Of a DNA stretch of 64,000 nt, positions 31,161-61,290 are shown one piece after another (the first letter of the stretch is position 1; the number at the start of each line of letters is the position of its first letter). The notes below the pieces were generated by a model. It worked only from the letters and a program-made list of their open reading frames with translations, searched no databases and had not been told where the DNA came from. The stretch comes from Candidatus Marinacidobacterales bacterium (GTDB lineage: Bacteria > Acidobacteriota > Vicinamibacteria > Marinacidobacterales > DATDRI01), in the NCBI GenBank assembly GCA_965219415.1, contig CBDCNP010000002.1:3264001-3328000 (forward strand). The letters run 5' to 3'. The position numbers and the translations under genes were made by a program.

Positions 31161-31501
31161 CCGTGGTCTCCGTCGGCGCGGCGGTGAACGTTGCTAATGC
31201 GGCACGCCAGGCACGCCCCATGTGCAGCCGGCTGGATTCCACCAGGTGAGCGCTGAGGACGCGGCGTTCCGTGAAGAGCTTGATATCCTCCGTAAACTCA
31301 TCTTATCAAGTTCAGAGCAGAATGCAGGAAATGTGGATCGTTTCCCAGCGGGAGCAGCGAAATGACATTGGGGTCGTTGTGTGACACCCGCTTGTGCTTC
31401 TAGCCGTCGCTGGCGAGGCGCAGGCGCGAGCATAGAACTTCCAGAAGCCCCACCGTGGTGGATGCCAGTTCTCCCGTCTCAGAAAAAGGGAGATCGAGAT
31501 C

Positions 31502-31696
31502 ATGGCAAATGAACGTCAGACACAAGTGATAGACAGCATTATCCAGCAGGTGAAAGACAGCATTTTGAGTGACTCCTCCGTCATATTTATTCAGAAAGAC
31601 GAGTCGGATGAAACAATCGTCGGTTCCGGAACGTTAGTTTCAATCGGCGATACCACCGCGATCCTGACTGCTGATCATGTCTTAGAAAAACTTCCG
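31502..31696 (+). pseudogene. Trypsin-like serine protease N-terminal fragment
   Basis: GSGTLV..ILTADHV catalytic His motif; cut by MITE at 31697. Confidence 0.7.
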
Positions 31697-31861
31697 GGTG
31701 CTTCCGCTGTTTACTGTTGGTAATATGTACGCATCCCTTTGCAAAAGAGGCACTTACGCTCCATTTAGCGCGCGGGGAAGGTCACAAGCGCTATTTTGAC
31801 TGTAACTTAATGCACTGTAAGTCTTAGCGTCATCTCACCAACACTTGATGGCGGAAGCACC
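31697..31861 (+). mobile_element. MITE-A (IS1-derived, about 165 bp) copy 1
   Basis: GGTGCTTCCGC..GCGGAAGCACC TIRs shared with IS1 at 38080. Confidence 0.85.
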
Positions 31862-32149
31862 ACTTCGTCCGATCGCACGGAGCTCTGAAGTTCGGACGTG
31901 AGATCCGAACTCCGGCTATGCAGGCCGGTCTGACCACGCGACGGCTCACCTTTCGAGACATCTTCTTGGCGACGACGATTCCTTTGTGGTCGCGGATCGA
32001 GGTTTTCTTGCTCACTGGGGCGCGCAACCCGGTCTCTTCCGCACCTGAACCACTGCCCGCAGCCGCGTAGCAACATATCTGGACTCCTCTAGTCAAGCCC
32101 CTTTCTTTCTAGTCACGCCCCTTTCTTAATAAATCTTCCATCGAAGCTG

Positions 32150-32375
32150 CGCATCCATCGCGTCGTGACGAGTGGGTCAGACTGCAAACGTATCTTCGGC
32201 CTCAGTGAGGAGCGTCTTGGGTGCTCCGGGCCATGATGGAAAATCCGCGCGCGAGGAGCCAATCACTTTGAACGACCTCTTAGGGCCAGTGTTGCTATTG
32301 GCTTGACCCCGCGCCGGTCCGACCGGTACGCCATCAGTTGGATGGGTATCGTCGCAGCCTCTTTTGGAAGGGAAA
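32150..32375 (-). ncRNA. Predicted bridge/seek RNA of IS1111 copy 1 (also about 51485-51710, 59920-60145 and in the duplicated end 51201-51410)
   Basis: Target loop closed by GCCAAT/ATTGGC with AGTGTTGCTA (rc of target TAGCAACACT) and CACTT; donor loop with ATGATGGAA (rc of junction TTCCATCAT) and CGTATCT; boundaries approximate. Confidence 0.75.
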
Positions 32376-32405
32376 AAGGAAAACACGAAAGTGGAGCCTC
32401 TAAAT

Positions 32406-33437
32406 CTAAGCGGCCACCGGCGACTGGAATTCACTCTCGCGGGTGGAGACGGCCCAGACGATCCGGGCGAGTTTGTTGGCGACAGCAATCACGGCCTTGT
32501 TGTGTCCCCGCGAGCGGTGGACCTTCCGAGCCCAGGCGCGGAGCTTGTCGGGCGGGCTCTTGCTGACGTTCGCCGCGCGGAGCACGGCGCGCCCGCCCTG
32601 GGTGAGGAGCATACGGAGGTAGGAGTCGCCACGCTTGGTGATGCGTCCGAGGCGGCGAATGTCGCCACTGGAGTTTTCCTTGGGAACTAGGCCGAGGTAG
32701 CTCGAGAAGCGGCGCCCCGATGGGAAGCGGCGAAGATCGCCGACGAAGCCCACGATGGCGGTCGCGGCCAGAAGTCCGATGCCGGGAATGGCGAGAAGTC
32801 GTTGGACTTCAGGAAGCTGCTTGGTGAGCGCCTTGAGCTCGTGCTCGATGCTAGCGCACTTGTCCTTGAGTTCTCGAATCTCGGAGCAGGCATCACGGAG
32901 ATGCGAACGGAGCACGTCGGGCAAATCAGAATCAGCGTCTTCGACGAGTTCGAAGAGGGCGGGCACGACGAAGTGAGCGCCCTTTGGGATGATGAATCCG
33001 AGTTCGCGCAGGAGCCCGCGTACGGCATTGATGCGTGCGGTCCGTGTGGAGAGCCATCCTGAGCGCAGGCGATGGAGCGCAGCGAGGGTGTGCTGGTGCA
33101 CGGACTTGATGGGTACGGGAAGAAGCTCCTCGTTCCTGTAGGCCTCGAGCAACGCCTTCGTGTCGGCGCGGTCGTTCTTGCTCCCGCGTCGATACGGCCT
33201 CACGAGGTGAGGTGGGAGCAGGACGACGTCGTGTCCCAACCTTCGGAACGTCCTTGCCCAGAAGTGAGCCGAGCCGCAGGCTTCGAGAAGCACGGTGGCA
33301 GCGCTCTGTTTGGCAAAGAACGACACCAATTTGGGTCGACTCACACGGAGTTGCTTGGACACCTTCCCCGCTTCTCCCGAGATGGCAATCTCGAAGACGT
33401 TCTTTGCAAGATCCACAGCGATTGTCGTATCTTTCAT
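32406..33437 (-). CDS. IS110-family DEDD recombinase/transposase
   Basis: VDLAK, LEACG, KNDRAD; IPGIG, YLGLVP..SSG, AVANKLARI; RBS AGGAGGAG before MKDTT. Confidence 0.95.
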   Translation of the reverse strand: MKDTTIAVDLAKNVFEIAISGEAGKVSKQLRVSRPKLVSFFAKQSAATVLLEACGSAHFWARTFRRLGHDVVLLPPHLVRPYRRGSKNDRADTKALLEAYRNEELLPVPIKSVHQHTLAALHRLRSGWLSTRTARINAVRGLLRELGFIIPKGAHFVVPALFELVEDADSDLPDVLRSHLRDACSEIRELKDKCASIEHELKALTKQLPEVQRLLAIPGIGLLAATAIVGFVGDLRRFPSGRRFSSYLGLVPKENSSGDIRRLGRITKRGDSYLRMLLTQGGRAVLRAANVSKSPPDKLRAWARKVHRSRGHNKAVIAVANKLARIVWAVSTRESEFQSPVAA

Positions 33438-33538
33438 TCGGACTCCTCCTTTTCGATGCGTATTCGACTGACTTTGGCACATCGATGCCGTCTATGTCAG
33501 TGGAGGAGTCCATTCCATCACTTGATGGCGGAAGCACC

Positions 33539-33719
33539 TGCGGCGGTCGAACAACGGTGCACGGAGATGGCCCTCCAGCATGCGGATGCGGTGGGCGACG
33601 GCGGCCGGTGTGACCTGAAGTTCCTCGGCGGCGCGTACGAAGTTCTCGTGCCGTGCGGCAGCGTCGAAGAAGCGGAGGCAATCGAGCGGTGGCAGGGCCC
33701 GCATGGTGCCCCACAGCAT
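33539..33719 (-). pseudogene. LysR (GcvA-like) HTH fragment
   Basis: LPPLDCLRFFDAAARHENFVRAAEELQVTPAAVAHRIRMLE; cut at the IS1 end. Confidence 0.85.
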
Positions 33720-34466
33720 ACAAGTCTATTTTGTGTTGACATAAATTGTTTTTCTCATGTTTCAGGCTCAACTTGCTGCGTTACTGCGCCCTAGCGTGCG
33801 CGATACGTGCTGGCAGACATAGTAGTAGCGGGCGTTGGGGGGTGCGTCGTCAGGGCCTGTGACTTGTGATGATGACTAATTTAAATTATGTCTATGTAGT
33901 AGAAAACTATTACTGTAAATAACTTACAGAATTGTATATATAAAGGCAACAGGATGTGTCGCCAGACTATCTGATGAGGCACATCCCTCTGGCGGGGTGG
34001 TAGGGACAGCACGATGACAAGGACATGCCAAGCAACTGGAGAAGCCGTCCTCGTCCCTCGGATTCCAAGGGCGTCTAAGCTGCTGATTTGTGGTCTATTT
34101 CAAAAGGGCCGAGTTTTGGCACAGGACGGGATGACGCGGGCGTATCGGTCATCGAATACACCCTTCAATCCGGCACCAGCCACGAAACCTGGCAGCGCAA
34201 ACAGCGAGCGGATCGACTGGGAATTTTTCACTCGGTTAGCCTATCCTAAAAATGGACCACTTTTCAGCACCTGATGAAGTACTGGATACCTTTTCCACAC
34301 AATGAGTTACACTGTTTTCCGTCAGGACTTACCCACACGAATCCGCGTAGACCCCTTATTACTAACGACTTATTCTTGTGGACCCTTAATTTCTGTCTTA
34401 GATTCTTGTTTGGTAGTCCTGCCGGTATCCTTAGATCGTTCAACTTATTAAAAAGGGGGACGTACC

Positions 34467-35680
34467 GTGGACTCGGATCCGAAACAGTCTCTCTCGGCTT
34501 CAGACCCAACTGGCTCGTGGGGCGCGCACCCAGAGCTCAAAGCCGCTAGCGCGGTCGCGCCCTTTGCCGAATCCTCTCCTGCGCCAGTGGTGCATCCGGT
34601 CGTTGCGGCGACAGCGCGCAAGAAGGCGCAGCCTAGCAAAGGCCGTATCATTGCGGTTGGCGGCGGCAAAGGCGGCGTTGGCAAGAGCATCATTACGAGC
34701 AGCGTCGGGATCTCCCTTGCACGGCACGGCAAGAAAGTGGTGGTTATCGATGCCGACCTCGGCGGAGCGAATCTCCATACTTGCTTGGGCTTGTCCACAC
34801 CGTCGCTCACGCTACGAGCAGCGTCGGGATCTCCCTTGCACGGCACGGCAAGAAAGTGGTGGTTATCGATGCCGACCTCGGCGGAGCGAATCTCCATACT
34901 TGCTTGGGCTTGTCCACACCGTCGCTCACGCTGAGCGATTTCATCAGTCGGCGCGTCGAGTCGATTGACGACGTGATTCTCGAGACTGGCGTCAAGAACC
35001 TCGGACTCATCAGCGGCGCACACGACCATCTCGCCGCGTCGAATCTGAAATATGGTCAGAAAACCCGACTCTTGTCCTGTATCGCTGCCGTGGACGCCGA
35101 TTTCGTCTTGCTCGACATCGGTGCTGGGATCTCGTTCAACATCGTCGACTTCTTTCTCATTGCGGAGCAAGGGCTCCTCGTCGCGATCCCCGAGCCGAGC
35201 TCGATCGAGAACGCCTACCGCTTCCTAAAAATGAGTTTTTACCGTCATCTGTGGCGCGCTTTGAAGTCGAGCCCGGTGCGCAAAGTAGTTGAGCAAGCGA
35301 TGGACCAAAAGAATCGCGACGGCATCCGCACGCCCATCGATCTTCTCGACGCTGTGGAGCGTCGCGACAGTGCTACCGGACGCTATCTCAAGGAGCAAGC
35401 CTTCTCGTTTCGGCCGCGGCTTCTGATCAATCAGGTCCGCTACCCCGAGGACGAGGGTCTCGGCGCGTCGATGGCCAGCGTCTGCCGTCGCCATCTCGGA
35501 ATCGCTATCGACGCCATCGGCTCGGTGCGCTTCGACGAGAGCGTTTGGAAGGCGAACCGCAAACGCAGACCTTTCATGCTCGACTTTCCCGAATCCGCAG
35601 CAGGAAGCTCCCTTGAGCGTGTGGCACAGGCTTTGATGTTCGGGCCACCCACTTTAGCGCGCACGGAGAGACGAAGTTGA
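34467..35680 (+). CDS. FlhG/MinD-like ATPase (119-bp internal tandem duplication causes frameshift)
   Basis: GGGKGGVGKS deviant Walker A, IDADLGGANLH, DIGAG, PEPSSIENAY. Confidence 0.85.
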
Positions 35681-36372
35681 TGCTAAGACGGCTCAGCGAG
35701 CAAGACCATTATCAAGTTCTCGAGGTTTCGTACGACGCGAGCTCCGAAGAGATCCAGTCGGCCTTCGAGACGGCCCGCGACATCTACTCTCACGAAGCGC
35801 TCGTTTCCAGCTCGATTCTGTCGGACCGCGAGCGCCGTCGCACGTTCCACCGGATCTCGGAGGCGTATCAGATGCTCATTGCTGAAGAAAGCCGCCGTCT
35901 CTACGATAAGAGGCTCGGGGTTCCGGAACCGGTCGTGCGCCGGGAGCAAGGGTCGAGGTTCGCCACCGCCGACAACGTCGAGGCGACGTCCACGAATGGC
36001 GACGTCGCTCCGTCCGAGGCCCACGCTGAGCGGGAGCACGTCTCCGCCGACGATGTCGAGACGCCCGAGAAAGCGGCGGGCTCGGAGAGTTCCGTGCGCG
36101 AGTGCCCGCTACAACTCGAGACGTCCGCAGAAGCGACTGGAGCGTTTCTTAAGGCGGCGCGACAGGCGATGGGACTCGAGTTGGCAACCATCTCTAAAGA
36201 AACGAAAATCGGCTGCTCCATGCTCGGATATATCGAGAACGAGAGACTCGATCGCCTCCCGGCCGCGGTCTATTTGCGCAATTTCACCAGGCAATTTGCC
36301 CGTTGTCTCGGGCTCGACGAAGATCAGGTTTCGACGACCTACTTGGAGCGCATCCACCGCCTCCAAAGCTAA
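35677..36372 (+). CDS. J-domain-like plus RodZ-type HTH protein
   Basis: DHYQVLEVSYDASSEEI..ISEAYQML; GAFLKAARQ..ISKETKI..IENERLDRLPAAVY. Confidence 0.75.
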   Translation: MMLRRLSEQDHYQVLEVSYDASSEEIQSAFETARDIYSHEALVSSSILSDRERRRTFHRISEAYQMLIAEESRRLYDKRLGVPEPVVRREQGSRFATADNVEATSTNGDVAPSEAHAEREHVSADDVETPEKAAGSESSVRECPLQLETSAEATGAFLKAARQAMGLELATISKETKIGCSMLGYIENERLDRLPAAVYLRNFTRQFARCLGLDEDQVSTTYLERIHRLQS

Positions 36373-36432
36373 CGCCCGATCCCGCGCTCACAAGCTGCTA
36401 TAGTTAGGAGCTTTGGACGGGAGGTCTCTCTT

Positions 36433-36784
36433 TTGCCCACGCTCTCCGTGGTGATCCCTTGCTACAACGAGGCGCTTACGATCGAGACGATCGTCGACGC
36501 GGTTTCGAAGAGTGAGATCGAGGATCTCGAGATTCTCGTGGTGGACGACTACTCGACGGACGGAACCCGCGACAAACTGCGTGAGATCCAGGAGAAACGT
36601 TCGATCGAAGTCGTGCACCACGAGCGCAACATGGGCAAAGGCGCCGCGCTCCGCACCGGGTTCGCACGCGCGACGGGCGATATCGTCATCGTTCAGGATG
36701 CCGACCTCGAATACGACCCCCGCGATTACATGAAGCTCGTTGCACCCATCCTGGAAGGCAAGGCCGATGTCGTCTTCGGTTCCC
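36433..36784 (+). pseudogene. GT2 glycosyltransferase, 3' truncated
   Basis: [29 protein letters not shown]; cut at TGTGCCTTCT end at 36785. Confidence 0.85.
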
Positions 36785-37005
36785 TGTGCCTTCTATTTAT
36801 TCATCCGCGCGCCCCGAACTTGATTAACCTCCGGTCTGCCAGCATCATGCCGACATGGCCGACATGATTTCGTCGTTGGTTCCCGCTCTCATCTCTGCCT
36901 TCAAGGCTCGTCGTGAGTTAACTCTCGAAGATGTCGCCCTTCGGCAGCAGCTCGCCGTCCTCCGCTGTTCGGTGAAACGGCCGCGGCCCTCGAATGTCGA
37001 CCGCC
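36785..37005 (+). mobile_element. Left end and N-terminal remnant of rve-integrase IS (also about 37974-38079, 50806-51038, 59690-59779)
   Basis: TGTGCCTTCTATTTATTCATCCGC end followed by MISS..SAFKARREL.LE.VALRQQLAVL..KRPR. Confidence 0.7.
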
Positions 37006-37054
37006 CAAAGGTCGGTGGCTAGGCCGCGGAACAGCTCATCGTATCAAGCGTCGA

Positions 37055-37719
37055 TCAGATCCAAATCGGGGGATTTTGGAAACTGCCGGTGTTGGAGGCG
37101 CTGGTGGATGCCGCCCATCGGGCTGGCATTGGAGTGGACGCCGAGGCGCGGCACGTGAGCGCCATGCGCACCGCGGTTCGGGCCGGTGTTGACAGACTGC
37201 ACGTTGTCTTCGCAGCCAGTCCATTATCCGAGTACAGCGACGAGGACATGAGGCTACTCGTACGGGGTGCGAAGCCGGTGGCCCTGGGTCCCTCGTCGAA
37301 CATTCTCCGCGGTCCCTACTTCGTCTCTACGATGGAGATGCGCCAGTCCTACGTCCGTGTCCTGGATTTTCCAGAGATTCTGGATCACCCTCTGCTTCCG
37401 GAAGCAGTTTCCTCCAGACATTTACGATTATATGCGCCGAGGTGGGATTGTCTCCGATGGAGGCGATACAGAGCGCGACCTTACGAGGTCTTGGAGTAGT
37501 CCCCAATCCATTCCATGGGCGATCGGTGCGCGTCACGATGAATCGACGGAACTTTTGCTTGACAACCTTCATTCGCTCACCGTCAACTTCCACGTCCCGT
37601 TGCCTCAAGAACTCGCGAACTTGGTCGAACCGGCACAGATGCAGGGGGTAGACGCCGATCTAGGAACGATCGAGGTAGGGAAATTTGCCGACCTGATCGT
37701 CGTCGATGGCGACCCGTGA
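37055..37719 (+). pseudogene. Degraded amidohydrolase fragment
   Basis: ALVDAAHRAG..H, GLSPMEAIQSAT, LGTIEVGKFADLIVVDGDP in shifting frames. Confidence 0.6.
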
Positions 37720-37806
37720 GGTCAAAATACTCATGCGGCTTCCCGATGGTAGAAACGTAGCAACCCGCAAAGCCGTTCGAGGGAGCGCACCTTGCGCTCG
37801 GACTGA

Positions 37807-37973
37807 GGTGCTTGCGCTGTTTGCTGTTGGTGATGTGTACGTATCCCTTTGCAAAAAAAGCGCTTACGCTCCATTTAGCGCGCGGGGAAGGTCGCGAGCG
37901 CTATTTTGGCTGTAATTTAATGCAGCATAAAGTCTTAGCGTCATCTCACCAACACTTCAATGGCGGAAGCACC
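37807..37973 (+). mobile_element. MITE-A copy 2
   Basis: Same TIRs and internal sequence as 31697. Confidence 0.85.
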
Positions 37974-38079
37974 CGTAACAGCACCCAAAACTCGCGGTCG
38001 ACATTCGAGAGCCGCGGCGGTTTCACCGAACGGCGGAGCACGGCGAGCTGCTGCCGAAGAGCGACATTCTCGAGAGCCA

Positions 38080-39277
38080 GGTGCTTCCGCAATTAAGTGT
38101 TGGCGGCCAGCCCCTAACCGGTCTGCGTGCTAGAGTTTGAACCAGAATTCCGAAGACACAGTTCTCTCATCGTCAGGGCCGAGCCAAAGTGAAGAATCGC
38201 AGATGTCTCAATCTCATGTCCGTTGCGGGGCAAAGTCAGTTCCGGAAACATCGTTCGCCACGGATTCTACCGAACCAGGTCCGGGAAACGCCGTCGATAC
38301 CGGTGCGGCGAGTGAGGAAAGACGTTCTCCTCGACGAAAGGCACGCCCTACTATCGTCTCCAACATCGAAGAGCTACTTTCGATGTGGTCATCGCTCTCA
38401 GAGTCGAGGGTGTCAGCATTTCCGCGATTTCCCGGATCAAAGGGATTGCCTGGAACACCGTCGCCCGCTGGCTCGAGAAGGCAGCCCAAGTGTGTCGTCG
38501 ACTCAATCACAGAAGGATCGCTGGCTTCGCTGCCGAAGAGCTTCAAGCCGACGAGATTCGCACGTTCGCGGGCAACAAGAAGACACCGAGTTGGGTCTTC
38601 GTTACAATCGAAGTCTGGTCTCGGCTCTGGCCATCGACGGTGACGGGAAGGCGAAGCTACCGGAACACTCACGCTCTGTTTCGCGACCTTTCGAGACGGA
38701 TGAATTTCGAGCGTCTTCCCTTGATCGTCACGGATGGATTCGAATTCTACCAGAAGGTCATCCGTCGCTTCTTCGGTCCAGCGTGTCTCTACGGCCAGGT
38801 CCTCAAAACGCGCAGGAACGATCGCATCATCAAGGTCGAACGGAGAGCGCTGCACGGAGCCGCGTGGCGATTCGAAGACGCGCTCAATAACTCCGAGGAC
38901 TCCTCGACATTGAACACGTCGTTCATCGAGCGGTTGAATCTGACCATCCGGCAAAGCTCGGCATACCTTTCGAGACGAACGCTTTCCCACGCTCGCTCGA
39001 CGGAGAGGCTCGATGAGCACCTGGAGTTGCTCCGTTGCTATTACAACTTCGTCCGACCGCACGGAGCTCTGAAGTTCGGACGTGAGATCCGAACTCCGGC
39101 TATGCAGGCCGGTCTCACCACGCGACGGCTCACCTTTCGAGACATCTTCTTGGCGACGACGATTCCTTTGTGGTCGCGGATCGAGGTTTTCCTGCTCAGT
39201 AGGGCGCGCAACCCGGTCTCTTCCGCACCTGTACCACTGCCCGCAGCCGCGTAGCAACACTTGATGGCGGAAGCACT
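38080..39277 (+). mobile_element. IS1-family element (full length, transposase damaged)
   Basis: TIRs GGTGCTTCCGCAATTAAGTGTTG / CAACACTTGATGGCGGAAGCAC. Confidence 0.85.
38189..39254 (+). pseudogene. IS1-family transposase (Zn ribbon, HTH, DDE)
   Basis: QADEIRTFAGNKK, VTDGFEFY, TSFIERLNLTIRQ, YYNFVRPH; frameshift near 38215 and TGA at 38313. Confidence 0.85.
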
Positions 39278-39597
39278 ACTTTCCCCAAAACTTAGGTCCA
39301 ACTTCAGAGTAAGAAGTTTGGCGAATTGTCCCCACCGTGGAAGCCGTGGGAAAGTAGAAAACTCGAAGAGTTTTCCAAGGTCGCAAAGCGACCGGCTGGA
39401 TGCATACCCAATCCTGTGGAAAAAGGAACGGCGCACCCCCACTTCGTGGTGAAGGTATCAGATCAAGCGGCGATCCATCAAGCGGCGACGTCGCGTCAGG
39501 CAAGACCATCGGCCAGGTGTTTATAGCGGTCGATGCGCCGTAGCCGGATTTGCCCGGGGAGGCGATGAGGCCAAAGAGCAGAGCGACGGCAGATTCC

Positions 39598-39841
39598 GGT
39601 GCTTCCGGCATCAAGTGTTGGTGGCTGCCGCGTAACCCGCTCGTGTGCTAGAGTTTGAGCCTGATTTCGAGAGACGCAGTTCTTTCGGCGATGCGGGCTG
39701 GGCTGACCACACGGTGCCTGACGTTCAGAGACACCTTCGTGTGCACGCCGACATCCTTATTGATGGCGTTCGCCGACACAGGCAGGCCAACTGACACTAG
39801 CATTCAAACACGGCGTAGCAACACTTGATGGCGGAAGCACC
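39598..39841 (+). mobile_element. IS1 internal-deletion derivative (244 bp) with an empty IS1111 target
   Basis: Both IS1 TIRs; ends GTAGCAACACTTGATGGCGGAAGCACC. Confidence 0.8.
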
Positions 39842-39850
39842 GGATCGAGC

Positions 39851-40489
39851 ATGAAGAAACGTTCCCTCCGATACGCTGGCGACAAGGCCGTTCGCGCTCT
39901 ATTGGAACGTTATGCGTGCCCGACGTCATTCCATGTCATCCGCACACGACTCCTCGGCAACATCGCGACGCCCAGGCTCGACGCATCGCCACTCCGAGCT
40001 ATAGAGAGCTGTTGGGAAGGTGAGTTGCCGGGGTTCGACAATGTCGGCGCAGCCAGTGAGCTATTCGAGTCCCTGATGGGGCTTTGGAACGAACTGGCAA
40101 GGCATCAATCGGCAACCAAGCCATTCCGTTTGACACGGATGGAGGCTAAGCCGGATACGGATGACATTCGCCGCTTGTGCCGGACCCGCACCGAGGAGCT
40201 TGAAGGCTTCATCGACGGACTGTTCGGTGACGTGGAGCTCATGGATCTGCCCGAACGGGCCAACGAGGCTCTGGACAACCTCGGCAAGATCTATGCCATG
40301 ACCCGCGGTATCATCGATCTCCTGGAGAGAGAGTCGGCGTCAGAGAGGGACCTTAGGGGAATTCTCAAGGACGTTGGGGAGCTCTCACACATCGCAGAGA
40401 AAGAACTGCACGCAGTAATGCTTGCCTGCAAGCGCGCCCGCCAACAGACCCTTTCCACTATCGCCGTGGGCAAACCCACCGTCCATTGA
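39851..40489 (+). CDS. Hypothetical helical protein
   Basis: Intact 212-aa ORF ending ..KPTVH. Confidence 0.65.
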   Translation: MKKRSLRYAGDKAVRALLERYACPTSFHVIRTRLLGNIATPRLDASPLRAIESCWEGELPGFDNVGAASELFESLMGLWNELARHQSATKPFRLTRMEAKPDTDDIRRLCRTRTEELEGFIDGLFGDVELMDLPERANEALDNLGKIYAMTRGIIDLLERESASERDLRGILKDVGELSHIAEKELHAVMLACKRARQQTLSTIAVGKPTVH

Positions 40490-40910
40490 AGGGAAGTGTC
40501 ACGAGCAGCCGGAAGTAGTTCTCACCAGGGCGATGTCCCGGAAGTGGCGTCGCTCAGATGCCGATTTGTAACGTTGCCAGTGGATCAAGTTTTGGCACAG
40601 GACGGGATGTACCGGCAAGAGAGAGATTGACGATATGAAGAACAGAATGAAGGCACGAGCGACGACAGCCCTGCTAAACCTCACAATTCAATTGCCGGTC
40701 GTTCTTCTCACCGCGTACCTTACAGCCCACTTCACGGTTAGGAAAGCCCGCCACGGAGCAAGAGGAGCAGGAACAGGAATACGTAGAAAACTTGCAGGAA
40801 GCGGGTCCGTAACGAGGCAGAGCTGAATGCCAGGAGCATTCGCAGGTGGATCCCAAAACTCTTGCCTATTGCAAAGGACCTAGAGGACTTCGTCAACGAC
40901 AAAGGACTAT

Positions 40911-41060
40911 CCCGTCCTGTGCCAAAACTCGGCCCTTTTGAAATAGACCACAAATCAGCAGCTTAGACGCCCTTGGAATCCGCGCAGAATCCAGGGTATT
41001 TCGCGCCGCAGGGCTGACTTCCGACCCATGGGGCTGGCGGATGAATAAATAGAAGGCACA
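40911..41060 (+). mobile_element. MITE-C (150 bp; ends of rve-integrase IS)
   Basis: CCCGTCCTGTGCCAAAACTCGG ... GAATAAATAGAAGGCACA. Confidence 0.75.
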
Positions 41061-41273
41061 GCCAAAACTCGGCCCTTTTGAAATAGGCCATAAATCAGCA
41101 GCTTAGAGTCTGTGTTTGCGACCGGGCCAAGGGCCGTAGGCTTTACAATCGTCTGGCCCGAGGGTGTTATCTTCAGATCCATGATGACGTACCACTCGCC
41201 GCCGCGAAACGGCCAATCCTGGCAGGTCTAAACCGCGGAATCAATGACGGATCGAGTTTTTGCGGAGCACAAG

Positions 41274-41438
41274 GGTGCTTGCGCTGTTTACTGTTGGTCA
41301 TATGTACGCATCCCTTTGCAAAAGCGACGCTTACGCTCCATTTAGCGCGAAGCGAAGGTCGCGAGCGCTATTTTGGCTGTAATTTAATGCAGCGTAAAGT
41401 CTTACGTCATCTCACCAACACTTAATGACGGAAGCACC
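41274..41438 (+). mobile_element. MITE-A copy 3
   Basis: Same TIRs and body. Confidence 0.85.
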
Positions 41439-41498
41439 CTGCGTTTCGTTTATCGCCCAGGACAGTGACGACTGGTCTAAATGCGCCCTGGATCGCGA

Positions 41499-43151: not shown

Positions 43152-43295
43152 CAGTCAGATAGGCCGGGCTATCCCTTCCTGTGCCAAAACCCGGCCCTTT
43201 TGAAATAGGCCATAAATCAACAACTTTCCTGCCGCTCACCATTGACGGTGTATGGAGGGCGCGGGGTACAAGAGTGGGAGCAGCACCACCAAGCC

Positions 43296-43390
43296 GGTGC
43301 TTCCGCCTTCGCTGCGCATTAAATGGAGCGTAAACGCCTCTTTTGCAAAGGGATGCGTGCACATCACCAACAGTAAACAGCGCAAGCACC
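43296..43390 (-). mobile_element. Mini MITE-A (95-bp deletion derivative)
   Basis: GGTGCTTCCGCC..CGCAAGCACC. Confidence 0.75.
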
Positions 43391-43555
43391 CTTGGGTCCG
43401 GAAACCGATGCAACGTGTCCACGGACTTGAGAAAAGCCAGGAACTTGGGAGGTTTCAATGAAAGACAATAGAATGATTGCCGAGTTGATATCGGAGTTTG
43501 TAGCGCAGTTGGAGAAGCAGCTGCATGAGCTAAATTCACGAATTACTACTGTTCT

Positions 43556-45219: not shown

Positions 45220-45443
45220 GTAGACGATGGCGATTCGCAATCCCAGGAAGACCGCGCAAAGTAATGGACGGCAATAGAACTGAGACAGGGGATAGGCGTT
45301 AGTGCATGAAATCTGTGATCCGCAAAAAAGAAGATCGCGTACCGCCTGGATCGACTTTTTGCGGAGCACAGGAGGTGCCAACGGGCGAGGGAGATGTTGG
45401 CGAACGGGTTGCTACCCTTGAACAATCCTTCGCCAGCGAGTCG

Positions 45444-45887
45444 ATGATGCACCACTACAACCTATCGACGCGCCACGTGTTCCAGACGCGACGCTCGGAT
45501 ATTCGCTCCGAGACGTTGGCTGCGTCGCGGTCCACCATCGAGGTGGCCACCCGCGGGCATGCGGTGCCGTTACCCGGATTCCCCGAACACTTTCTAAGCA
45601 TCAGGAACACTTGGCTCGGCGCAGTGGGCTGGCTCATCCAGGGACCCGAGCACCGGGTCATGGTTCAGTGCGTGACAGCCTGGACGATTGAGGGCGCAGC
45701 AAAGGGCGTGCGCTGGTTGGGGACGGAGCTACCGGAGGAGTTGGACTTGCCTTGTTGTCTGGTCAAGCTTGGACTACCCCTGCTTAAGGAGCCCGATTCG
45801 GCAAGTTGGCTTGAGGATGCCGAGCGGTGCATTAGCTGGGCGATGCTACCTACGCCTCCTCTTGGCAATGGCACAGGGTCGCCCTGA
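45444..45887 (+). CDS. Hypothetical protein, paralog A
   Basis: MMHHYNLSTRHV..WLEDAERCISWAMLP; close paralog at 49103-49509. Confidence 0.65.
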   Translation: MMHHYNLSTRHVFQTRRSDIRSETLAASRSTIEVATRGHAVPLPGFPEHFLSIRNTWLGAVGWLIQGPEHRVMVQCVTAWTIEGAAKGVRWLGTELPEELDLPCCLVKLGLPLLKEPDSASWLEDAERCISWAMLPTPPLGNGTGSP

Positions 45888-51126: not shown

Positions 51127-52855
51127 TATCTGGACTCCTCTAGTCAAGCCCCTTTCTTTCTAGTCACGCCCCTTTCTTAATAAATCTTCCATCGAAGCTG
51201 CGCATCCATCGCGTCGTGACGAGTGGGTCAGACTGCAAACGTATCTTCGGCCTCAGTGAGGAGCGTCTTGGGTGCTCCGGGCCATGATGGAAAATCCGCG
51301 CGCGAGGAGCCAATCACTTTGAACGACCTCTTAGGGCCAGTGTTGCTATTGGCTTGACCCCGCGCCGGTCCGACCGGTACGCCATCAGTTGGATGGGTAT
51401 CGTCGCAGCCTATCTGGACTCCTCTAGTCAAGCCCCTTTCTTTCTAGTCACGCCCCTTTCTTAATAAATCTTCCATCGAAGCTGCGCATCCATCGCGTCG
51501 TGACGAGTGGGTCAGACTGCAAACGTATCTTCGGCCTCAGTGAGGAGCGTCTTGGGTGCTCCGGGCCATGATGGAAAATCCGCGCGCGAGGAGCCAATCA
51601 CTTTGAACGACCTCTTAGGGCCAGTGTTGCTATTGGCTTGACCCCGCGCCGGTCCGACCGGTACGCCATCAGTTGGATGGGTATCGTCGCAGCCTCTTTT
51701 GGAAGGGAAAAAGGAAAACACGAAAGTGGAGCCTCTAAATCTAAGCGGCCACCGGCGACTGGAATTCACTCTCGCGGGTGGAGACGGCCCAGACGATCCG
51801 GGCGAGTTTGTTGGCGACAGCAATCACGGCCTTGTTGTGTCCCCGCGAGCGGTGGACCTTCCGAGCCCAGGCGCGGAGCTTGTCGGGCGGGCTCTTGCTG
51901 ACGTTCGCCGCGCGGAGCACGGCGCGCCCGCCCTGGGTGAGGAGCATACGGAGGTAGGAGTCGCCACGCTTGGTGATGCGTCCGAGGCGGCGAATGTCGC
52001 CACTGGAGTTTTCCTTGGGAACTAGGCCGAGGTAGCTCGAGAAGCGGCGCCCCGATGGGAAGCGGCGAAGATCGCCGACGAAGCCCACGATGGCGGTCGC
52101 GGCCAGAAGTCCGATGCCGGGAATGGCGAGAAGTCGTTGGACTTCAGGAAGCTGCTTGGTGAGCGCCTTGAGCTCGTGCTCGATGCTAGCGCACTTGTCC
52201 TTGAGTTCTCGAATCTCGGAGCAGGCATCACGGAGATGCGAACGGAGCACGTCGGGCAAATCAGAATCAGCGTCTTCGACGAGTTCGAAGAGGGCGGGCA
52301 CGACGAAGTGAGCGCCCTTTGGGATGATGAATCCGAGTTCGCGCAGGAGCCCGCGTACGGCATTGATGCGTGCGGTCCGTGTGGAGAGCCATCCTGAGCG
52401 CAGGCGATGGAGCGCAGCGAGGGTGTGCTGGTGCACGGACTTGATGGGTACGGGAAGAAGCTCCTCGTTCCTGTAGGCCTCGAGCAACGCCTTCGTGTCG
52501 GCGCGGTCGTTCTTGCTCCCGCGTCGATACGGCCTCACGAGGTGAGGTGGGAGCAGGACGACGTCGTGTCCCAACCTTCGGAACGTCCTTGCCCAGAAGT
52601 GAGCCGAGCCGCAGGCTTCGAGAAGCACGGTGGCAGCGCTCTGTTTGGCAAAGAACGACACCAATTTGGGTCGACTCACACGGAGTTGCTTGGACACCTT
52701 CCCCGCTTCTCCCGAGATGGCAATCTCGAAGACGTTCTTTGCAAGATCCACAGCGATTGTCGTATCTTTCATTCGGACTCCTCCTTTTCGATGCGTATTC
52801 GACTGACTTTGGCACATCGATGCCGTCTATGTCAGTGGAGGAGTCCATTCCATCA
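51127..52855 (-). mobile_element. IS1111-type element copy 2 (51411-52855) with a 284-bp tandem duplication of its non-coding end (51127-51410)
   Basis: Flanks GTAGCAACA | CTTGATGGCGGAAGCACC. Confidence 0.92.
51741..52772 (-). CDS. IS110-family recombinase copy 2
   Basis: Protein identical to copy 1. Confidence 0.95.
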   Translation of the reverse strand: MKDTTIAVDLAKNVFEIAISGEAGKVSKQLRVSRPKLVSFFAKQSAATVLLEACGSAHFWARTFRRLGHDVVLLPPHLVRPYRRGSKNDRADTKALLEAYRNEELLPVPIKSVHQHTLAALHRLRSGWLSTRTARINAVRGLLRELGFIIPKGAHFVVPALFELVEDADSDLPDVLRSHLRDACSEIRELKDKCASIEHELKALTKQLPEVQRLLAIPGIGLLAATAIVGFVGDLRRFPSGRRFSSYLGLVPKENSSGDIRRLGRITKRGDSYLRMLLTQGGRAVLRAANVSKSPPDKLRAWARKVHRSRGHNKAVIAVANKLARIVWAVSTRESEFQSPVAA

Positions 52856-59845: not shown

Positions 59846-61290
59846 TATCTGGACTCCTCTAGTCAAGCCCCTTTCTTTCTAGTCACGCCCCTTTCTTAAT
59901 AAATCTTCCATCGAAGCTGCGCATCCATCGCGTCGTGACGAGTGGGTCAGACTGCAAACGTATCTTCGGCCTCAGTGAGGAGCGTCTTGGGTGCTCCGGG
60001 CCATGATGGAAAATCCGCGCGCGAGGAGCCAATCACTTTGAACGACCTCTTAGGGCCAGTGTTGCTATTGGCTTGACCCCGCGCCGGTCCGACCGGTACG
60101 CCATCAGTTGGATGGGTATCGTCGCAGCCTCTTTTGGAAGGGAAAAAGGAAAACACGAAAGTGGAGCCTCTAAATCTAAGCGGCCACCGGCGACTGGAAT
60201 TCACTCTCGCGGGTGGAGACGGCCCAGACGATCCGGGCGAGTTTGTTGGCGACAGCAATCACGGCCTTGTTGTGTCCCCGCGAGCGGTGGACCTTCCGAG
60301 CCCAGGCGCGGAGCTTGTCGGGCGGGCTCTTGCTGACGTTCGCCGCGCGGAGCACGGCGCGCCCGCCCTGGGTGAGGAGCATACGGAGGTAGGAGTCGCC
60401 ACGCTTGGTGATGCGTCCGAGGCGGCGAATGTCGCCACTGGAGTTTTCCTTGGGAACTAGGCCGAGGTAGCTCGAGAAGCGGCGCCCCGATGGGAAGCGG
60501 CGAAGATCGCCGACGAAGCCCACGATGGCGGTCGCGGCCAGAAGTCCGATGCCGGGAATGGCGAGAAGTCGTTGGACTTCAGGAAGCTGCTTGGTGAGCG
60601 CCTTGAGCTCGTGCTCGATGCTAGCGCACTTGTCCTTGAGTTCTCGAATCTCGGAGCAGGCATCACGGAGATGCGAACGGAGCACGTCGGGCAAATCAGA
60701 ATCAGCGTCTTCGACGAGTTCGAAGAGGGCGGGCACGACGAAGTGAGCGCCCTTTGGGATGATGAATCCGAGTTCGCGCAGGAGCCCGCGTACGGCATTG
60801 ATGCGTGCGGTCCGTGTGGAGAGCCATCCTGAGCGCAGGCGATGGAGCGCAGCGAGGGTGTGCTGGTGCACGGACTTGATGGGTACGGGAAGAAGCTCCT
60901 CGTTCCTGTAGGCCTCGAGCAACGCCTTCGTGTCGGCGCGGTCGTTCTTGCTCCCGCGTCGATACGGCCTCACGAGGTGAGGTGGGAGCAGGACGACGTC
61001 GTGTCCCAACCTTCGGAACGTCCTTGCCCAGAAGTGAGCCGAGCCGCAGGCTTCGAGAAGCACGGTGGCAGCGCTCTGTTTGGCAAAGAACGACACCAAT
61101 TTGGGTCGACTCACACGGAGTTGCTTGGACACCTTCCCCGCTTCTCCCGAGATGGCAATCTCGAAGACGTTCTTTGCAAGATCCACAGCGATTGTCGTAT
61201 CTTTCATTCGGACTCCTCCTTTTCGATGCGTATTCGACTGACTTTGGCACATCGATGCCGTCTATGTCAGTGGAGGAGTCCATTCCATCA
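59846..61290 (-). mobile_element. IS1111-type element copy 3
   Basis: Same ends and same IS1-TIR target as copies 1 and 2. Confidence 0.92.
60176..61207 (-). CDS. IS110-family recombinase copy 3
   Basis: Protein identical to copy 1. Confidence 0.95.
   Translation of the reverse strand: MKDTTIAVDLAKNVFEIAISGEAGKVSKQLRVSRPKLVSFFAKQSAATVLLEACGSAHFWARTFRRLGHDVVLLPPHLVRPYRRGSKNDRADTKALLEAYRNEELLPVPIKSVHQHTLAALHRLRSGWLSTRTARINAVRGLLRELGFIIPKGAHFVVPALFELVEDADSDLPDVLRSHLRDACSEIRELKDKCASIEHELKALTKQLPEVQRLLAIPGIGLLAATAIVGFVGDLRRFPSGRRFSSYLGLVPKENSSGDIRRLGRITKRGDSYLRMLLTQGGRAVLRAANVSKSPPDKLRAWARKVHRSRGHNKAVIAVANKLARIVWAVSTRESEFQSPVAA

What the first reader, a model, noticed from the sequence alone, without database searches (positions are those of the whole stretch)
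32076..33520. IS1111-type bridge recombinase whose guide RNA is programmed against the terminal repeat of another transposon (IS1)
Seen: three copies (32076, 51411, 59846) all lie at GCGTAGCAA-CA-CTTGATGG in the IS1 right TIR; empty sites exist near 39251 and 39815. The predicted circle junction is TTCCAT-CA-TATCTGG. In the 3' non-coding end, a loop closed by GCCAAT (32258) / ATTGGC (32297) holds AGTGTTGCTA (32288-97), the exact reverse complement of target TAGCAACACT, opposite CACTT (32264). A second loop around a GGCC-GGAGC/GCTCC-GGCC stem holds ATGATGGAA (32233-41), the exact reverse complement of donor TTCCATCAT, opposite CGTATCT (6/7 match to CATATCT). Known: IS110/IS1111 use bridge/seek RNAs with target- and donor-binding loops. 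Inference: a recently active RNA-guided recombinase with a CA core that uses IS1 ends as a multi-copy safe harbour and probably disables them. It is also a candidate programmable tool.
Basis: partly seen in the sequence, partly recalled or inferred. Interest (0 to 1): 0.88.

Follow-up and report, generated by a model that had tools for sequence, protein, structure and literature searches.

The report
IS1111-type insertion sequence targeting IS1-like ends
This is a recently active IS1111-type mobile element whose own small guide RNA matches the end of another, IS1-like transposon, so it inserts there again and again; the mechanism is already known from related elements, which makes this a clear natural example and not a new kind of system.

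Summary
Window 32076-33520 is a 1445-bp IS110-family element of the IS1111 group. It has subterminal inverted repeats, a 330-nt non-coding end downstream of the transposase gene, and a GL-P----SG motif. Its closest named relative is ISPa25 (46% identity).

The genome holds 30 copies with both ends, 17 of them identical to the window copy. All lie in one orientation, 20 bp from the outer end of the right terminal repeat of a 1.2-kb IS1-like element or its 245-bp MITE.

Of 451 scorable repeat sites, 29 of 108 with a perfect TAGCAACACT are occupied, against 1 of 343 imperfect ones.

The 3' end encodes a structured RNA kept in relatives 46-62% identical: 39 pairs, 90% paired, 21 with compensatory changes. 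Its 10-nt 5' loop strand follows each relative's own flank (0 of 20000 permutations reach the observed match).

The target loop is therefore well supported. Three points are weaker:
- The donor loop is ambiguous, because CCAUCA also pairs with an upstream left-end mimic in the RNA.
- "Disables IS1" is doubtful, because 22 of 23 repeat positions survive insertion.
- Expression is untested.

TIR-targeting IS1111 elements (IS4321/IS5075) and seekRNA/bridge RNAs are already described, so this is a new member of a known kind.

The parts
32076..33520 (-). IS copy 1: 1445 bp counting one copy of the CA/TG core at 33519-33520. The left end (transposase side) is at 33518 and the right end at 32076.
   Evidence: It is identical to 16 other genomic copies.
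51411..52855 (-). IS copy 2, full length.
   Evidence: 100% identical.
59846..61290 (-). IS copy 3, full length.
   Evidence: 100% identical.
51127..51410 (-). Tandem extra copy of the right-end module: the first 284 bp, which contains the whole structured RNA. It is joined directly to copy 2.
   Evidence: In IS orientation the junction reads CCAGATA|GG-CTGCGACG, a pseudo-target inside the element itself.
32406..33440 (-). Transposase gene: 344 aa from MKDTT, with an alternative upstream ATG at 33482 giving 358 aa. It has a DEDD RuvC-like domain, a Transposase_20 domain and the motif GLVPKENSSG.
   Evidence: ORF; PF01548 45.7 bits, PF02371 85.5 bits; NF033542 302.6 bits, cut-off 140; distant match to the ISCro4 and IS621 transposases.
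32175..32361 (-). Structured non-coding RNA, equivalent to a long seekRNA/bridge RNA (187 nt). Seven helices: P0, US:DG5, P1, P2, P3, the apical target hairpin and the donor-side hairpin.
   Evidence: 39 pairs, 90.2% of cells paired (27-44% when slid), 21 pairs with compensatory change (7-12 when slid), 0/500 shuffles reach the observed values. G-U pairs fit only this strand.
32288..32297 (-). 5' target guide. The RNA reads UAGCAACACU, complementary to AGTGTTGCTA on the top strand in IS orientation (2 nt of left flank + TG core + 6 nt of right flank).
   Evidence: Covaries with the right flank in relatives. Occupancy test.
32264..32268 (-). 3' target guide. The RNA reads AAGUG, the same sense as the left flank AAG + TG core, so it would pair with the bottom strand.
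   Evidence: Weak covariation with the left flank: own mean 3.69 against 3.07, 219/20000 permutations.
32233..32241 (-). Proposed 5' donor guide. The RNA reads UUCCAUCAU, the reverse complement of A-TG-ATGGAA (core + left end). Its CCAUCA part also pairs with the upstream UGAUGG.
32331..32336 (-). Upstream left-end mimic in the RNA (UGAUGG = core + first 4 nt of the left end, same sense). It forms a 6-bp helix with CCAUCA.
   Evidence: pair 29/144: GC 11, CG 4, AU 1; 6/6 pairs in 11 of 17 sequences.
32189..32195 (-). Proposed 3' donor guide. The RNA reads AGAUACG, the same sense as the right end AGATA + CG. The real junction in this element is TG, so there is one mismatch.
   Evidence: Right end CAGATA goes with AGAUA in the 12 elements where that end was found, and CATATA with (A/G)UAUA in 4 of 4. 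ISPa25 behaves likewise.
32080..32089 (.). Right subterminal inverted repeat TGGACTCCTC, 4 bp from the right end.
   Evidence: Read.
33503..33512 (.). Left subterminal inverted repeat (GAGGAGTCCA on the + strand), 6 bp from the left end.
   Evidence: Read.
32065..32075 (+). Inner half of the target, GCGTAGCAACA. TAG (32068-32070) is the stop codon of the host IS1-like transposase.
   Evidence: the ORF ends ...PLPAAA*.
33521..33538 (+). Outer half of the target, CTTGATGGCGGAAGCACC: the outermost 18 bp of the host right terminal repeat. Unrelated DNA follows.
38080..39277 (+). Uninterrupted host element: IS1-like, 1198 bp, with an in-frame stop in this copy. Its right end carries an empty target.
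   Evidence: An intact copy (L058) was scored.
39598..39841 (+). 244-bp MITE derived from the host element, with an empty target at its right end.

Best explanation
The element is an autonomous IS1111-group member of the IS110 family.

Proposed mechanism:
1. Its DEDD transposase acts together with an RNA transcribed from the 330-nt end downstream of the gene (minus strand, about 32361 to 32175).
2. The RNA folds into a conserved scaffold.
3. An internal loop between the GCCAAU/AUUGGC helix and a small apical hairpin presents two strands. UAGCAACACU (5') pairs with one strand of the target. AAGUG (3') pairs with the other strand. The two overlap at the TG/CA core.
4. This directs a circular copy of the element, in one orientation and without target duplication, into GCGTAGCAA-CA-CTTGATGG. 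That site lies 20 bp from the outer end of the right terminal repeat of an abundant IS1-like element and its MITE, 6 bp past the host transposase stop codon.
5. A second region flanking the invariant GGCC hairpin (UUCCAUCAU and AGAUACG) matches the element's own left and right ends. It may read the donor, but in the free RNA part of it is paired with an internal left-end mimic.

Shown here: the anatomy, copy number, site and orientation specificity, the dependence of occupancy on a perfect 10-nt match, the conserved RNA structure, and guide-flank covariation.

Inferred from the family: transcription of the RNA, its binding to the transposase, the circular intermediate with a junction promoter (TTGACT in the right end, TGaTGGAAT across core and left end), and the recombination chemistry.
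For: Family:
- PF01548 and PF02371 score above their cut-offs.
- NF033542 "IS110 family RNA-guided transposase" scores 302.6 bits against a cut-off of 140.
- 45.9% identity over 99% of the length to an annotated ISPa25-family transposase.
- ISPa25 has the same left end TGATGGAATGGACTCC and the same RNA scaffold.
- IS1111 hallmarks are visible in the sequence: a 10-bp subterminal repeat, a long NCR downstream of the gene, and GLVPKENSSG. The criteria come from PMC11187229 (sections 4, 6) and PMC11208160 (passages).

Site specificity:
- 27 full-length and 3 internally deleted copies all have the flanks ...AGCAACA | IS | CA-CTTGATGGCGGAAGCACC in one orientation.
- The repeat 18-mer (up to 2 mismatches) occurs at 454 sites, 33 of them occupied. 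Three occupied copies are truncated and cannot be scored.
- Of the remaining 451 sites, 29 of 108 with a perfect TAGCAACACT are occupied against 1 of 343 imperfect ones (Fisher p 1e-18). 0 of 40 single-mismatch sites are occupied (p 4e-5).

Independent insertions:
- The insertions lie in at least three host contexts: 14 in the IS1-like element, 11 in the MITE, 2 others.
- Those host flanks differ by substitutions and indels, while the IS copies are 99.93-100% identical.

RNA:
- 17 relatives (transposases 46-62% identical, from 16 genomes) share the scaffold.
- 39 pairs in 7 helices, 90.2% of cells paired against 27-44% when slid, 21 pairs with compensatory change against 7-12 when slid, and 0/500 shuffles reach the observed values.

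Guide covariation:
- The longest Watson-Crick run between each element's 5' guide and its own right flank averages 6.93 over 15 elements (8, 9, 3, 10, 4, 6, 8, 7, 7, 10, 10, 4, 5, 4, 9).
- Permuted flanks average 3.95, and 0 of 20000 permutations reach the observed mean. The result is the same (0 of 20000) after collapsing three same-target elements.
- The order (top-strand complement 5' of the bottom-strand match) is the one reported for IS1111 seekRNAs (PMC11187229, sections 4, 9).
Against: - No evidence of expression and no circle junction. All runs found are kept as contigs, and the only joints are empty sites that any uninterrupted host copy would give.
- Rfam has no matching family.
- Single-sequence fold energies are not exceptional.
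- 5 of 15 relatives have an own-flank run of 5 or less: L019 3, L032 4 (9 if G-U is allowed), L041 4, L043 5, L046 4. L046's guide matches L038's target, not its own flank.
- The short 3' guide covaries only weakly (219/20000).
- One insertion sits at a site with 3 mismatches, the left-repeat type CGCCAACACT, so specificity is not absolute.
- The 3' donor guide reads CG where this element's junction is TG.
- The donor-guide segment CCAUCA follows its intramolecular partner at least as well as it follows the DNA: 6/6 pairs in 11 of 17 sequences, against 6/6 in 4 of 15.
- Copies within one genome and related genomes are not statistically independent, so the p-values overstate the case.
Confidence: 0.88

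Rival explanations
1. Hitch-hiking instead of self-targeting. The element inserted once or a few times into an IS1-like end, and its copy number then rose because the host element or MITE transposed with the IS inside it. On this view the common site reflects the host's mobility and not RNA-guided choice.
For: After insertion the host repeat is almost intact: GGTGCTTCCGCCATCAAGTG-ATG against -TTG, 22 of 23 positions. The host ORF is not interrupted. A composite could therefore still move. Ten 1.69-kb MITE+IS composites exist.
Against: - Host parts next to the IS differ from copy to copy by substitutions and indels, while the IS copies are 99.93-100% identical. This is the reverse of what co-mobilisation predicts.
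- The IS sits in at least three different host backgrounds.
- Only sites with the exact 10-nt guide match are occupied, 29/108 against 1/343, even though left-end and other repeat variants are more numerous.
- Relatives with other guides sit in other sites.
Confidence: 0.05
2. Protein-determined specificity. The transposase or its subterminal repeats recognise the IS1-like end directly, and the complementary stretches in the 3' end are by-products, for example target sequence captured at the ends.
For: - The IS ends and part of the donor-side sequences are conserved across relatives, so some complementarity is inherited and not informative.
- Nothing here shows an RNA exists.
- How IS1111 ends are recognised is stated to be unknown (PMC11187229, section 14).
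Against: - The guide positions are the hypervariable columns of an otherwise conserved, covarying scaffold, and they follow each element's own flank (0/20000 permutations).
- seekRNAs were shown to co-purify with, and be essential for, four IS1111-family transposases. ISPa25, the closest named relative here, was predicted in that paper to carry an ISKpn4-like seekRNA (PMC11187229, abstract and section 9).
Confidence: 0.04
3. Target loop only. The RNA guides target choice as in the best explanation, but the "donor loop" is not a DNA-reading loop. UUCCAUCAU and AGAUACG would be scaffold of the long precursor (helix US:DG5 plus P0), and the ends would be recognised by the protein through the subterminal repeats.
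For: - The UGAUGG:CCAUCA helix has compensatory changes (GC 11, CG 4, AU 1 at one pair).
- In the ISPa25-like clade CCAUGA pairs perfectly with UCAUGG but mismatches the TGATGG left-end junction.
- A short seekRNA of 82 nt was sufficient for ISEc11 movement (PMC11187229, sections 10, 14).
Against: - The 5' part of the segment follows the left end in some relatives: ATGGGA with UCCCAU in G008, and ATGAAG with a G-U pair in L041.
- The 3' segment follows the right end (CAGATA/AGAUA against CATATA/UAUA, 4 of 4, plus ISPa25).
- Durrant et al. predict bridge RNAs, with target- and donor-complementary loops shown for example elements, in the right end of 93% of IS1111 elements (PMC11208160, passages).
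Confidence: 0.3

Closest known systems
IS4321 / IS5075 (IS1111 family; Partridge and Hall 2003, seen only as a title in reference lists; target logo mentioned in PMC11187229 section 13)
   Same: An IS1111-family element with subterminal inverted repeats that inserts, site- and orientation-specifically, into the terminal inverted repeat of another transposon.
   Different: The target there is the 38-bp repeat of Tn21-family (Tn3-type) transposons (the 38-bp length is recalled; the title gives only the target). Here it is the 23-bp right repeat of an IS1-like insertion sequence and its MITE. Sequence relatedness to this element was not measured here.
ISPa25 / ISKpn4 / ISPst6 (IS1111 elements that target attC sites)
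   Same: ISPa25 is the closest named relative: 45.9% identity over 99% of the transposase. It shares the left end TGATGGAATGGACTCC, the same RNA scaffold and the same guide positions. The seekRNAs of ISKpn4 and ISPst6 co-purify with their transposases, and ISPa25 is predicted to have the same fold (PMC11187229, section 9).
   Different: The target is an integron attC site (here ...TTGAG-TG | CG-ACTTGTTAGCC). The right end is CATATA instead of CAGATA. The guide reads UAACAAUGCC instead of UAGCAACACU.
ISEc11 / ISXne4 (natural and experimental reprogramming of the seekRNA)
   Same: Related elements keep the RNA stems but change the target-matching bases together with the target (PMC11187229, section 10). 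The same pattern is seen here across 15 relatives.
   Different: A different clade with different targets. Here the evidence is comparative only.
IS621 bridge RNA (IS110 group; PDB 8wt6)
   Same: A DEDD recombinase plus an RNA with an internal loop whose two strands read opposite strands of the target around a 2-nt core, and a second loop proposed for the donor (PMC11208160 passages).
   Different: - The RNA lies upstream of the gene in IS621 and downstream here.
- The protein match is only distant (E 9e-8, C-terminal domain only).
- The subterminal repeats are long here.
- The donor-side strand is here paired with an internal left-end mimic.
ISPpu9 of Pseudomonas putida (PMC12288879; abstract start only)
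   Same: An IS110-family element in repeated sequences with a small-RNA gene downstream of the transposase gene, extra copies of the RNA module, and several circular forms. The tandem right-end modules here (51127-51410, and L022 in G034) resemble that modularity.
   Different: Its target is REP sequences. No test of relatedness was done here.

Membership tests
IS110 family (DEDD transposases) | N-terminal DEDD/RuvC-like domain and C-terminal Transposase_20 domain | tested here: met
   PF01548 scores 45.7 bits (cut-off 29) and PF02371 85.5 bits (cut-off 21.3). NF033542 scores 302.6 bits (cut-off 140).
IS110 family (DEDD transposases) | Site- and orientation-specific insertion with no target duplication beyond a shared 2-nt core | tested here: met
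   Empty sites read ...GCAACA-CTTGATGG. Occupied sites read ...GCAACA|IS...TTCCAT-CA|CTTGATGG. All 30 two-ended copies are in one orientation.
IS1111 group | Subterminal inverted repeats (7-17 bp in PMC11208160; usually 11-13 bp in PMC11187229) | tested here: met
   TGGACTCCTC at 32080-32089 and its complement at 33503-33512. It is 10 bp perfect, or 12 bp with one mismatch.
IS1111 group | Asymmetric terminal extensions beyond the repeats (7 and 3 bp, or 6 and 3 bp) | tested here: inconclusive
   Here the extensions are 6 bp (ATGGAA) and 4 bp (GATA), not counting the 2-nt core. They are asymmetric, but the numbers depend on where the core and the repeat edges are drawn.
IS1111 group | Long non-coding region downstream of the transposase gene | tested here: met
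   330 nt downstream (32076-32405) against 38-80 nt upstream.
IS1111 group | GL-P----S(t)G motif and transposase of about 330-350 aa | tested here: met
   GLVPKENSSG is present in the ORF. The protein is 344 aa from MKDTT; the start codon was not determined experimentally.
IS1111 group | Full-length relatedness to a recognised IS1111 transposase | tested here: met
   45.9% identity over residues 2-340 to an annotated ISPa25-family transposase. ISPa25 is treated as an IS1111-family element in PMC11187229 section 9.
IS1111 group | Circular intermediate with abutted ends that creates a promoter | not testable with these tools
   Only contigs of public runs were available. The junction promoter (TTGACT, 18 bp, TGaTGGAAT) is read from the ends and is an inference.
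seekRNA / bridge RNA | Conserved structured RNA in the long non-coding end | tested here: met
   39 pairs, 90.2% of cells paired, 21 pairs with compensatory change, 0/500 shuffles, slid controls 27-44%.
seekRNA / bridge RNA | [quoted passage not shown] In IS1111 elements the top-strand complement comes first. | tested here: met
   UAGCAACACU (5') is complementary to the top strand AGTGTTGCTA. AAGUG (3') matches the top strand and so pairs with the bottom strand. Covariation of the 5' guide: 0/20000 permutations. Covariation of the 3' guide: 219/20000.
seekRNA / bridge RNA | Donor-binding loop that reads the element's own ends | tested here: inconclusive
   Complementarity exists (9/9 and 6/7). 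The right end covaries with the 3' segment in 4 of 4 changed elements. But CCAUCA also forms a covarying helix with the upstream UGAUGG.
seekRNA / bridge RNA | RNA is made, binds the transposase and is required for movement | not testable with these tools
   No raw RNA reads were available.
IS1 family (the host element) | Transposase matches the IS1 family models above their curated cut-offs | tested here: inconclusive
   For the intact copy L058, NF033558 is the best family at 84.5 bits, E 9e-24, but its cut-off is 100. PF03400 scores 21.6 bits against a cut-off of 24.1. The IS1/IS1595 zinc domain scores 19.8 against 28.
IS1 family (the host element) | Short element with about 23-bp terminal inverted repeats and an N-terminal zinc-finger/HTH followed by a DDE domain | tested here: met
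   The element is 1200 bp. Its 23-bp repeats differ at 2 positions. The ORF carries a C..C...C..C-like N-terminus, an HTH and a DDE region. That classical IS1 is 768 bp with two frames is recalled, not tested.

The most novel reading that the evidence does not exclude
The long form of this RNA carries a built-in mimic of the element's own left end (UGAUGG), which base-pairs with the strand that would otherwise read the donor DNA (CCAUCA). Donor recognition would then work by strand displacement, as a switch. The free RNA is closed, and the left end of the element (or the left junction during excision) opens it. This could set the order or direction of excision against insertion in IS1111-type elements.

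Together with a host repeat that stays 22/23 intact after insertion, the element would be a hyperparasite that keeps its IS1-like or MITE carrier mobile and rides with it.
Probability: 0.15. Interest if true: 0.6.

Novelty: new member of a known kind. Interest (0 to 1): 0.4.

Why it matters
This is a clean natural data set on the specificity of an IS1111-type RNA-guided recombinase. One genome offers 451 scorable near-identical sites, and only those with a perfect 10-nt match are used (29 of 108, against 1 of 343). That is the kind of on-target versus off-target information normally obtained from library experiments.

It adds IS1-like ends and their MITEs to the list of repeated "safe harbours" used by this family, alongside REP sequences, attC sites and Tn21-family repeats.

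A set of 17 alignable relatives with different guides could serve to define the scaffold and the programmable positions of this clade.

The internal left-end mimic, the CG/TG discrepancy at the core and the tandem right-end modules are small open points about how IS1111 elements treat their own ends. Siddiquee et al. state that this question is unresolved.

It does not reveal a new kind of system.

Tried and rejected
- Rfam 15, permissive scan of 31500-34000: only a chance miRNA-model hit inside the coding region. There is no family for this RNA.
- Single-sequence folding: the loops appear as described, but z-scores of -2.33 and -1.28 are not evidence by themselves.
- Public runs: all 24 runs are stored as contigs. 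RNA-library contigs cover parts of the transposase gene of relatives and little of the non-coding end. This gives no verdict on transcription, RNA ends or a circle junction. The "skips 1445" joints are empty host repeats and do not show excision.
- First occupancy count: it used a 1500-bp look-back and so took the inner junction of the tandem copy as a flank, giving 28/107 against 2/344. Searches corrected this to 29/108 against 1/343.
- Ungapped identities of host flanks (means 0.73 and 0.63): these are depressed by indels and by host parts shorter than 130 bp. I use only the visible substitutions, not those figures.
- L019 (G026, 54% identity, one in-frame TGA): its ends could not be placed and its guide does not match the flank found. 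It is kept in the right-flank counts as a miss and left out of the left-flank test.
- L042 had no recognisable right end. L044 and L047 end at contig ends. L045 and L053 lack the non-coding end. These could not enter the right-flank test.
- I considered that the 284-bp tandem module was an ordinary slippage duplication. This is less likely because it starts exactly at the element's end, and a second case in G034 also joins the right end to an internal AG-TG site. It is not proven.
- The Partridge and Hall 2003 paper is not held. Supplementary figures of PMC11187229 (seekRNA folds of ISPa25 and ISKpn4) and the figures of PMC11208160 could not be seen. They may bear on the donor-loop question.
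- No search was made that would show an IS1-end target is unreported. The two literature searches found none, but ISfinder was not available.


Full report
**What is there**

Window 32076-33520 is a 1445-bp element that occurs three times in the window (32076, 51411, 59846). The window also holds an extra tandem copy of its first 284 bp at 51127-51410.

On the minus strand it carries one ORF, 32406-33482. From MKDTT the protein is 344 aa. The protein has the two Pfam domains of IS110-family transposases, PF01548 and PF02371, both above their cut-offs. It scores 302.6 bits on NCBIfam NF033542, "IS110 family RNA-guided transposase", against a cut-off of 140.

**Which group**

The element shows the features that PMC11187229 (sections 4 and 6, read) and PMC11208160 (passages) use to separate IS1111 from IS110:
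- Subterminal inverted repeats: TGGACTCCTC, 6 bp from the left end and 4 bp from the right end.
- A long non-coding region downstream of the gene: 330 nt, against at most 80 nt upstream.
- The motif GL-P----SG (GLVPKENSSG).

The closest named relative in the plasmid collection is an ISPa25-family transposase, 45.9% identical over 99% of the length. ISPa25 has the same left end and the same layout of its 3' end.

The only solved relatives are the ISCro4 and IS621 transposases. The match is distant and covers the C-terminal domain only.

**Where it sits**

The window's genome (8.05 Mb, three contigs) has 27 full-length copies and 3 with small internal deletions. Of the 27, 17 are identical to the window copy, 8 differ by one base, and 2 are 99.4-99.6% identical. 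There are also three truncated copies.

All 30 two-ended copies have the same flanks and orientation...AGCAACA | IS | CA-CTTGATGGCGGAAGCACC. Unrelated DNA follows on the right. GGTGC... is therefore the outer end of a host element.

That host comes in two forms. One is a 1.2-kb insertion sequence, with 28 intact-length copies listed; the window has one at 38080-39277. The other is a MITE of about 245 bp; the window has one at 39598-39841. Ten 1.69-kb units are MITE plus IS.

An intact host copy (L058) encodes a single ORF whose best family is IS1. It scores NF033558 84.5 bits, E 9e-24, below the cut-off of 100. PF03400 scores 21.6 bits, below 24.1. The zinc-domain hit is weak. "IS1-like" is the right word.

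The ORF ends ...PLPAAA-TAG, and this TAG is the TAG in GCG-TAG-CAACA. The target is therefore the right repeat, 6 bp beyond the host stop codon and 20 bp from the outer end.

**Specificity inside one genome**

The outer 18-mer (up to 2 mismatches) occurs at 454 sites, 33 of them occupied. Three of the occupied sites are truncated copies whose inner flank is lost.

| Site class (10 nt spanning the insertion point) | Occupied | Total |
|---|---|---|
| Perfect TAGCAACACT | 29 | 108 |
| Any mismatch | 1 | 343 |
| Exactly one mismatch (subset of the row above) | 0 | 40 |

Fisher's test gives p 1e-18 for perfect against imperfect sites and p 4e-5 for the single-mismatch class.

The single exception is a left-repeat-type site, CGCCAACACT. 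The abundant CACCAA class (176 sites) and CGCCAA class (78 sites) are otherwise untouched.

These copies are not independent draws, so the p-values are generous. Even so, the pattern is what a 10-nt guide predicts.

The insertions lie in at least three host backgrounds. Their host flanks differ by substitutions and indels, while the IS copies are 99.93-100% identical. This points to recent, separate insertions, not spread of a composite.

Near-identical elements (93-98% transposase identity) sit in the same site in three other genomes of the same order (G034, G016, G018). A few G016 copies lie in other or nested contexts.

**The RNA**

Searches of 41 relatives and 401 genomes of the phylum gave elements with transposases 46-62% identical. 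Their 3' ends align into a conserved scaffold with sharply variable blocks (alignment A1 of 17 sequences).

I specified seven helices: the RNAalifold consensus, plus a small hairpin (P1) and extensions of P0 and P3. Results:
- 90.2% of 663 cells pair, against 27-44% when the partner is slid by 1-3 columns.
- 21 of 39 pairs show compensatory change, against 7-12 when slid.
- 0 of 500 shuffles reach the observed values.

Invariant or common G-U pairs (U146-G198 in 17 sequences, G68-U114 in 13, U79-G99 in 15) fit only the transposase strand.

In the window the RNA runs from about 32361 to 32175 on the minus strand.

**Target loop**

The loop lies between the GCCAAU/AUUGGC helix and the apical hairpin. 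Its 5' strand is UAGCAACACU (32297 to 32288). This is the exact complement of AGTGTTGCTA on the top strand in IS orientation: 2 nt of left flank, the TG core, and 6 nt of right flank.

Its 3' strand ends in AAGUG (32268 to 32264). This has the same sense as AAG+TG, so it would pair with the bottom strand.

This order is the one reported for IS1111 seekRNAs (PMC11187229, sections 4, 9).

Across 15 relatives with a usable right flank, I measured the longest Watson-Crick run between each 5' guide and its own flank. The values are 8, 9, 3, 10, 4, 6, 8, 7, 7, 10, 10, 4, 5, 4, 9, with a mean of 6.93. Cross-pairings are mostly 2-5, and the permutation mean is 3.95. None of 20000 permutations reaches the observed mean, and the same holds after collapsing three elements that share a target.

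With G-U allowed, the own mean is 8.2.

Misses are real:
- L019 has uncertain ends and a broken gene.
- L041 and L043 match poorly.
- L046's guide matches L038's target, not its own flank.

The short 3' guide follows the left flank only weakly (3.69 against 3.07; 219 of 20000).

**Donor side**

UUCCAUCAU (32241 to 32233) is the complement of A-TG-ATGGAA, that is, core plus left end. AGAUACG (32195 to 32189) equals the right end AGATA plus CG.

The right-end match covaries. CAGATA goes with AGAUA in the 12 elements where that end was found, and CATATA goes with AUAUA or GUAUA in 4 of 4, and in ISPa25.

Two observations cut against a simple donor loop:
- This element's junction is TG, not CG. 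Among relatives, the base pair after the right end is mostly CG, while the pair before the left end is TG in most (13 of 16 readable left junctions).
- RNAalifold pairs CCAUCA with an upstream UGAUGG (32336 to 32331), a same-sense copy of core plus left end. That helix shows compensatory change: GC 11, CG 4, AU 1 at one pair.

Head to head, CCAUCA makes 6/6 pairs with the RNA partner in 11 of 17 sequences. It makes 6/6 with the DNA in 4 of 15.

Siddiquee et al. found a short 82-nt seekRNA to be sufficient for ISEc11 and state that end recognition is unresolved (sections 10, 14). I therefore treat the donor loop as possible but unproven.

**Effect on the host**

The insertion does not touch the host ORF. 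The repeat reads GGTGCTTCCGCCATCAAGTG-ATG after insertion instead of -TTG, so 22 of the 23 positions shared by the two host ends survive. "Disables" is thus not supported. Riding along is possible, but I found no identical composites that would show it.

**What is not shown**

- Transcription, RNA ends, protein binding and the circle were not tested. Public runs were contigs only, and Rfam has no model.
- The junction promoter (TTGACT in the right end, 18 bp, TGaTGGAAT over core and left end) is read from the ends. It is an inference based on the promoter described for the family (PMC11187229, section 4).

**Comparison and novelty**

Three things are already described:
- IS1111 elements that insert into the terminal repeats of other transposons (IS4321/IS5075; title seen, target logo mentioned in PMC11187229 section 13).
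- seekRNA and bridge RNA guidance.
- Natural reprogramming of the guide.

This element is a new member of that kind with a new target class, an IS1-like end and its MITE. It also offers an unusually informative within-genome specificity record.

Several relatives sit beside GTTAGG or GTTAGC motifs that look like attC sites. The guide here differs from theirs at few positions (UAACAACCGU against UAGCAACACU). A shift from an attC-type target is plausible, but I did not test it.

Noticed in passing
window 51127-51410; L022 (G034): There is a tandem extra copy of the right-end or RNA module directly before a full copy. In the window the joint (IS orientation) is CCAGATA|GG-CTGCGACG. That internal site resembles the target (6 of 8 right-flank bases). 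In G034 a 326-nt module is joined at an internal AG-TG site. This looks like recombinase action on pseudo-targets inside the element and recalls the extra RNA modules of ISPpu9.
   Followed up: partly
whole genome; window 31690-50610: The host repeat 18-mer occurs 454 times in 8 Mb. It falls into several end classes: CACCAA 176, TAGCAA 112, CGCCAA 78, TACCAA 32. The window holds 16 of them, many as nested fragments and MITEs, so this is an IS graveyard.
   Followed up: partly
window 33492-33719 (minus strand): The N-terminal 60 residues of a LysR-type regulator (PF00126, E 7e-16) are cut off exactly where the host element's outer end begins. The host element inserted into, and truncated, a LysR gene.
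   Followed up: partly
L031, L034, L039, L041, L046, L054; L059: Relatives 53-62% identical sit next to GTTAGG or GTTAGC motifs, with a ...CTAAC... motif about 100 nt upstream. This is what insertion into integron attC sites would look like, and it is how ISPa25 sits in a class 1 integron. It suggests the clade is attC-targeting and that this element was retargeted.
   Followed up: partly
L046 (G304) against L038 (G353): The 5' guide of L046 matches the right flank of L038 over 10 nt but its own right flank over only 4 nt, while its 3' guide fits its own left flank (6 of 7). This could be an off-target or hybrid-site insertion.
   Followed up: no
window 33445-33500 (minus strand; left end / 5' UTR): A palindrome GGCATCGATGTGCC, flanked by GACTGAC...GTCAGTC-like arms, lies between the left subterminal repeat and the start codon. 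It is kept in most relatives (visible in the UP rows). Its function is unknown.
   Followed up: no
relatives: The base pair before the left end is TG in most relatives (13 of 16 readable left junctions), and the pair after the right end is mostly CG. In this element both are TG, and both target guides read TG while the 3' donor segment still reads CG. It is unclear how the core is treated in this clade.
   Followed up: partly
window 43503-45288: A long array with a 15-nt period (24 registers reported) lies inside ORFs. It is probably a repeat protein with a 5-residue unit.
   Followed up: no
window 34694-34931: An exact 119-bp tandem duplication lies inside overlapping ORFs.
   Followed up: no
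window 32096-32140: The right end carries a direct repeat of about 23 bp (GAAAGGGGC-G/T-TGACTAGA...). The 98% relative in G034 has only one unit and is 32 bp shorter.
   Followed up: no
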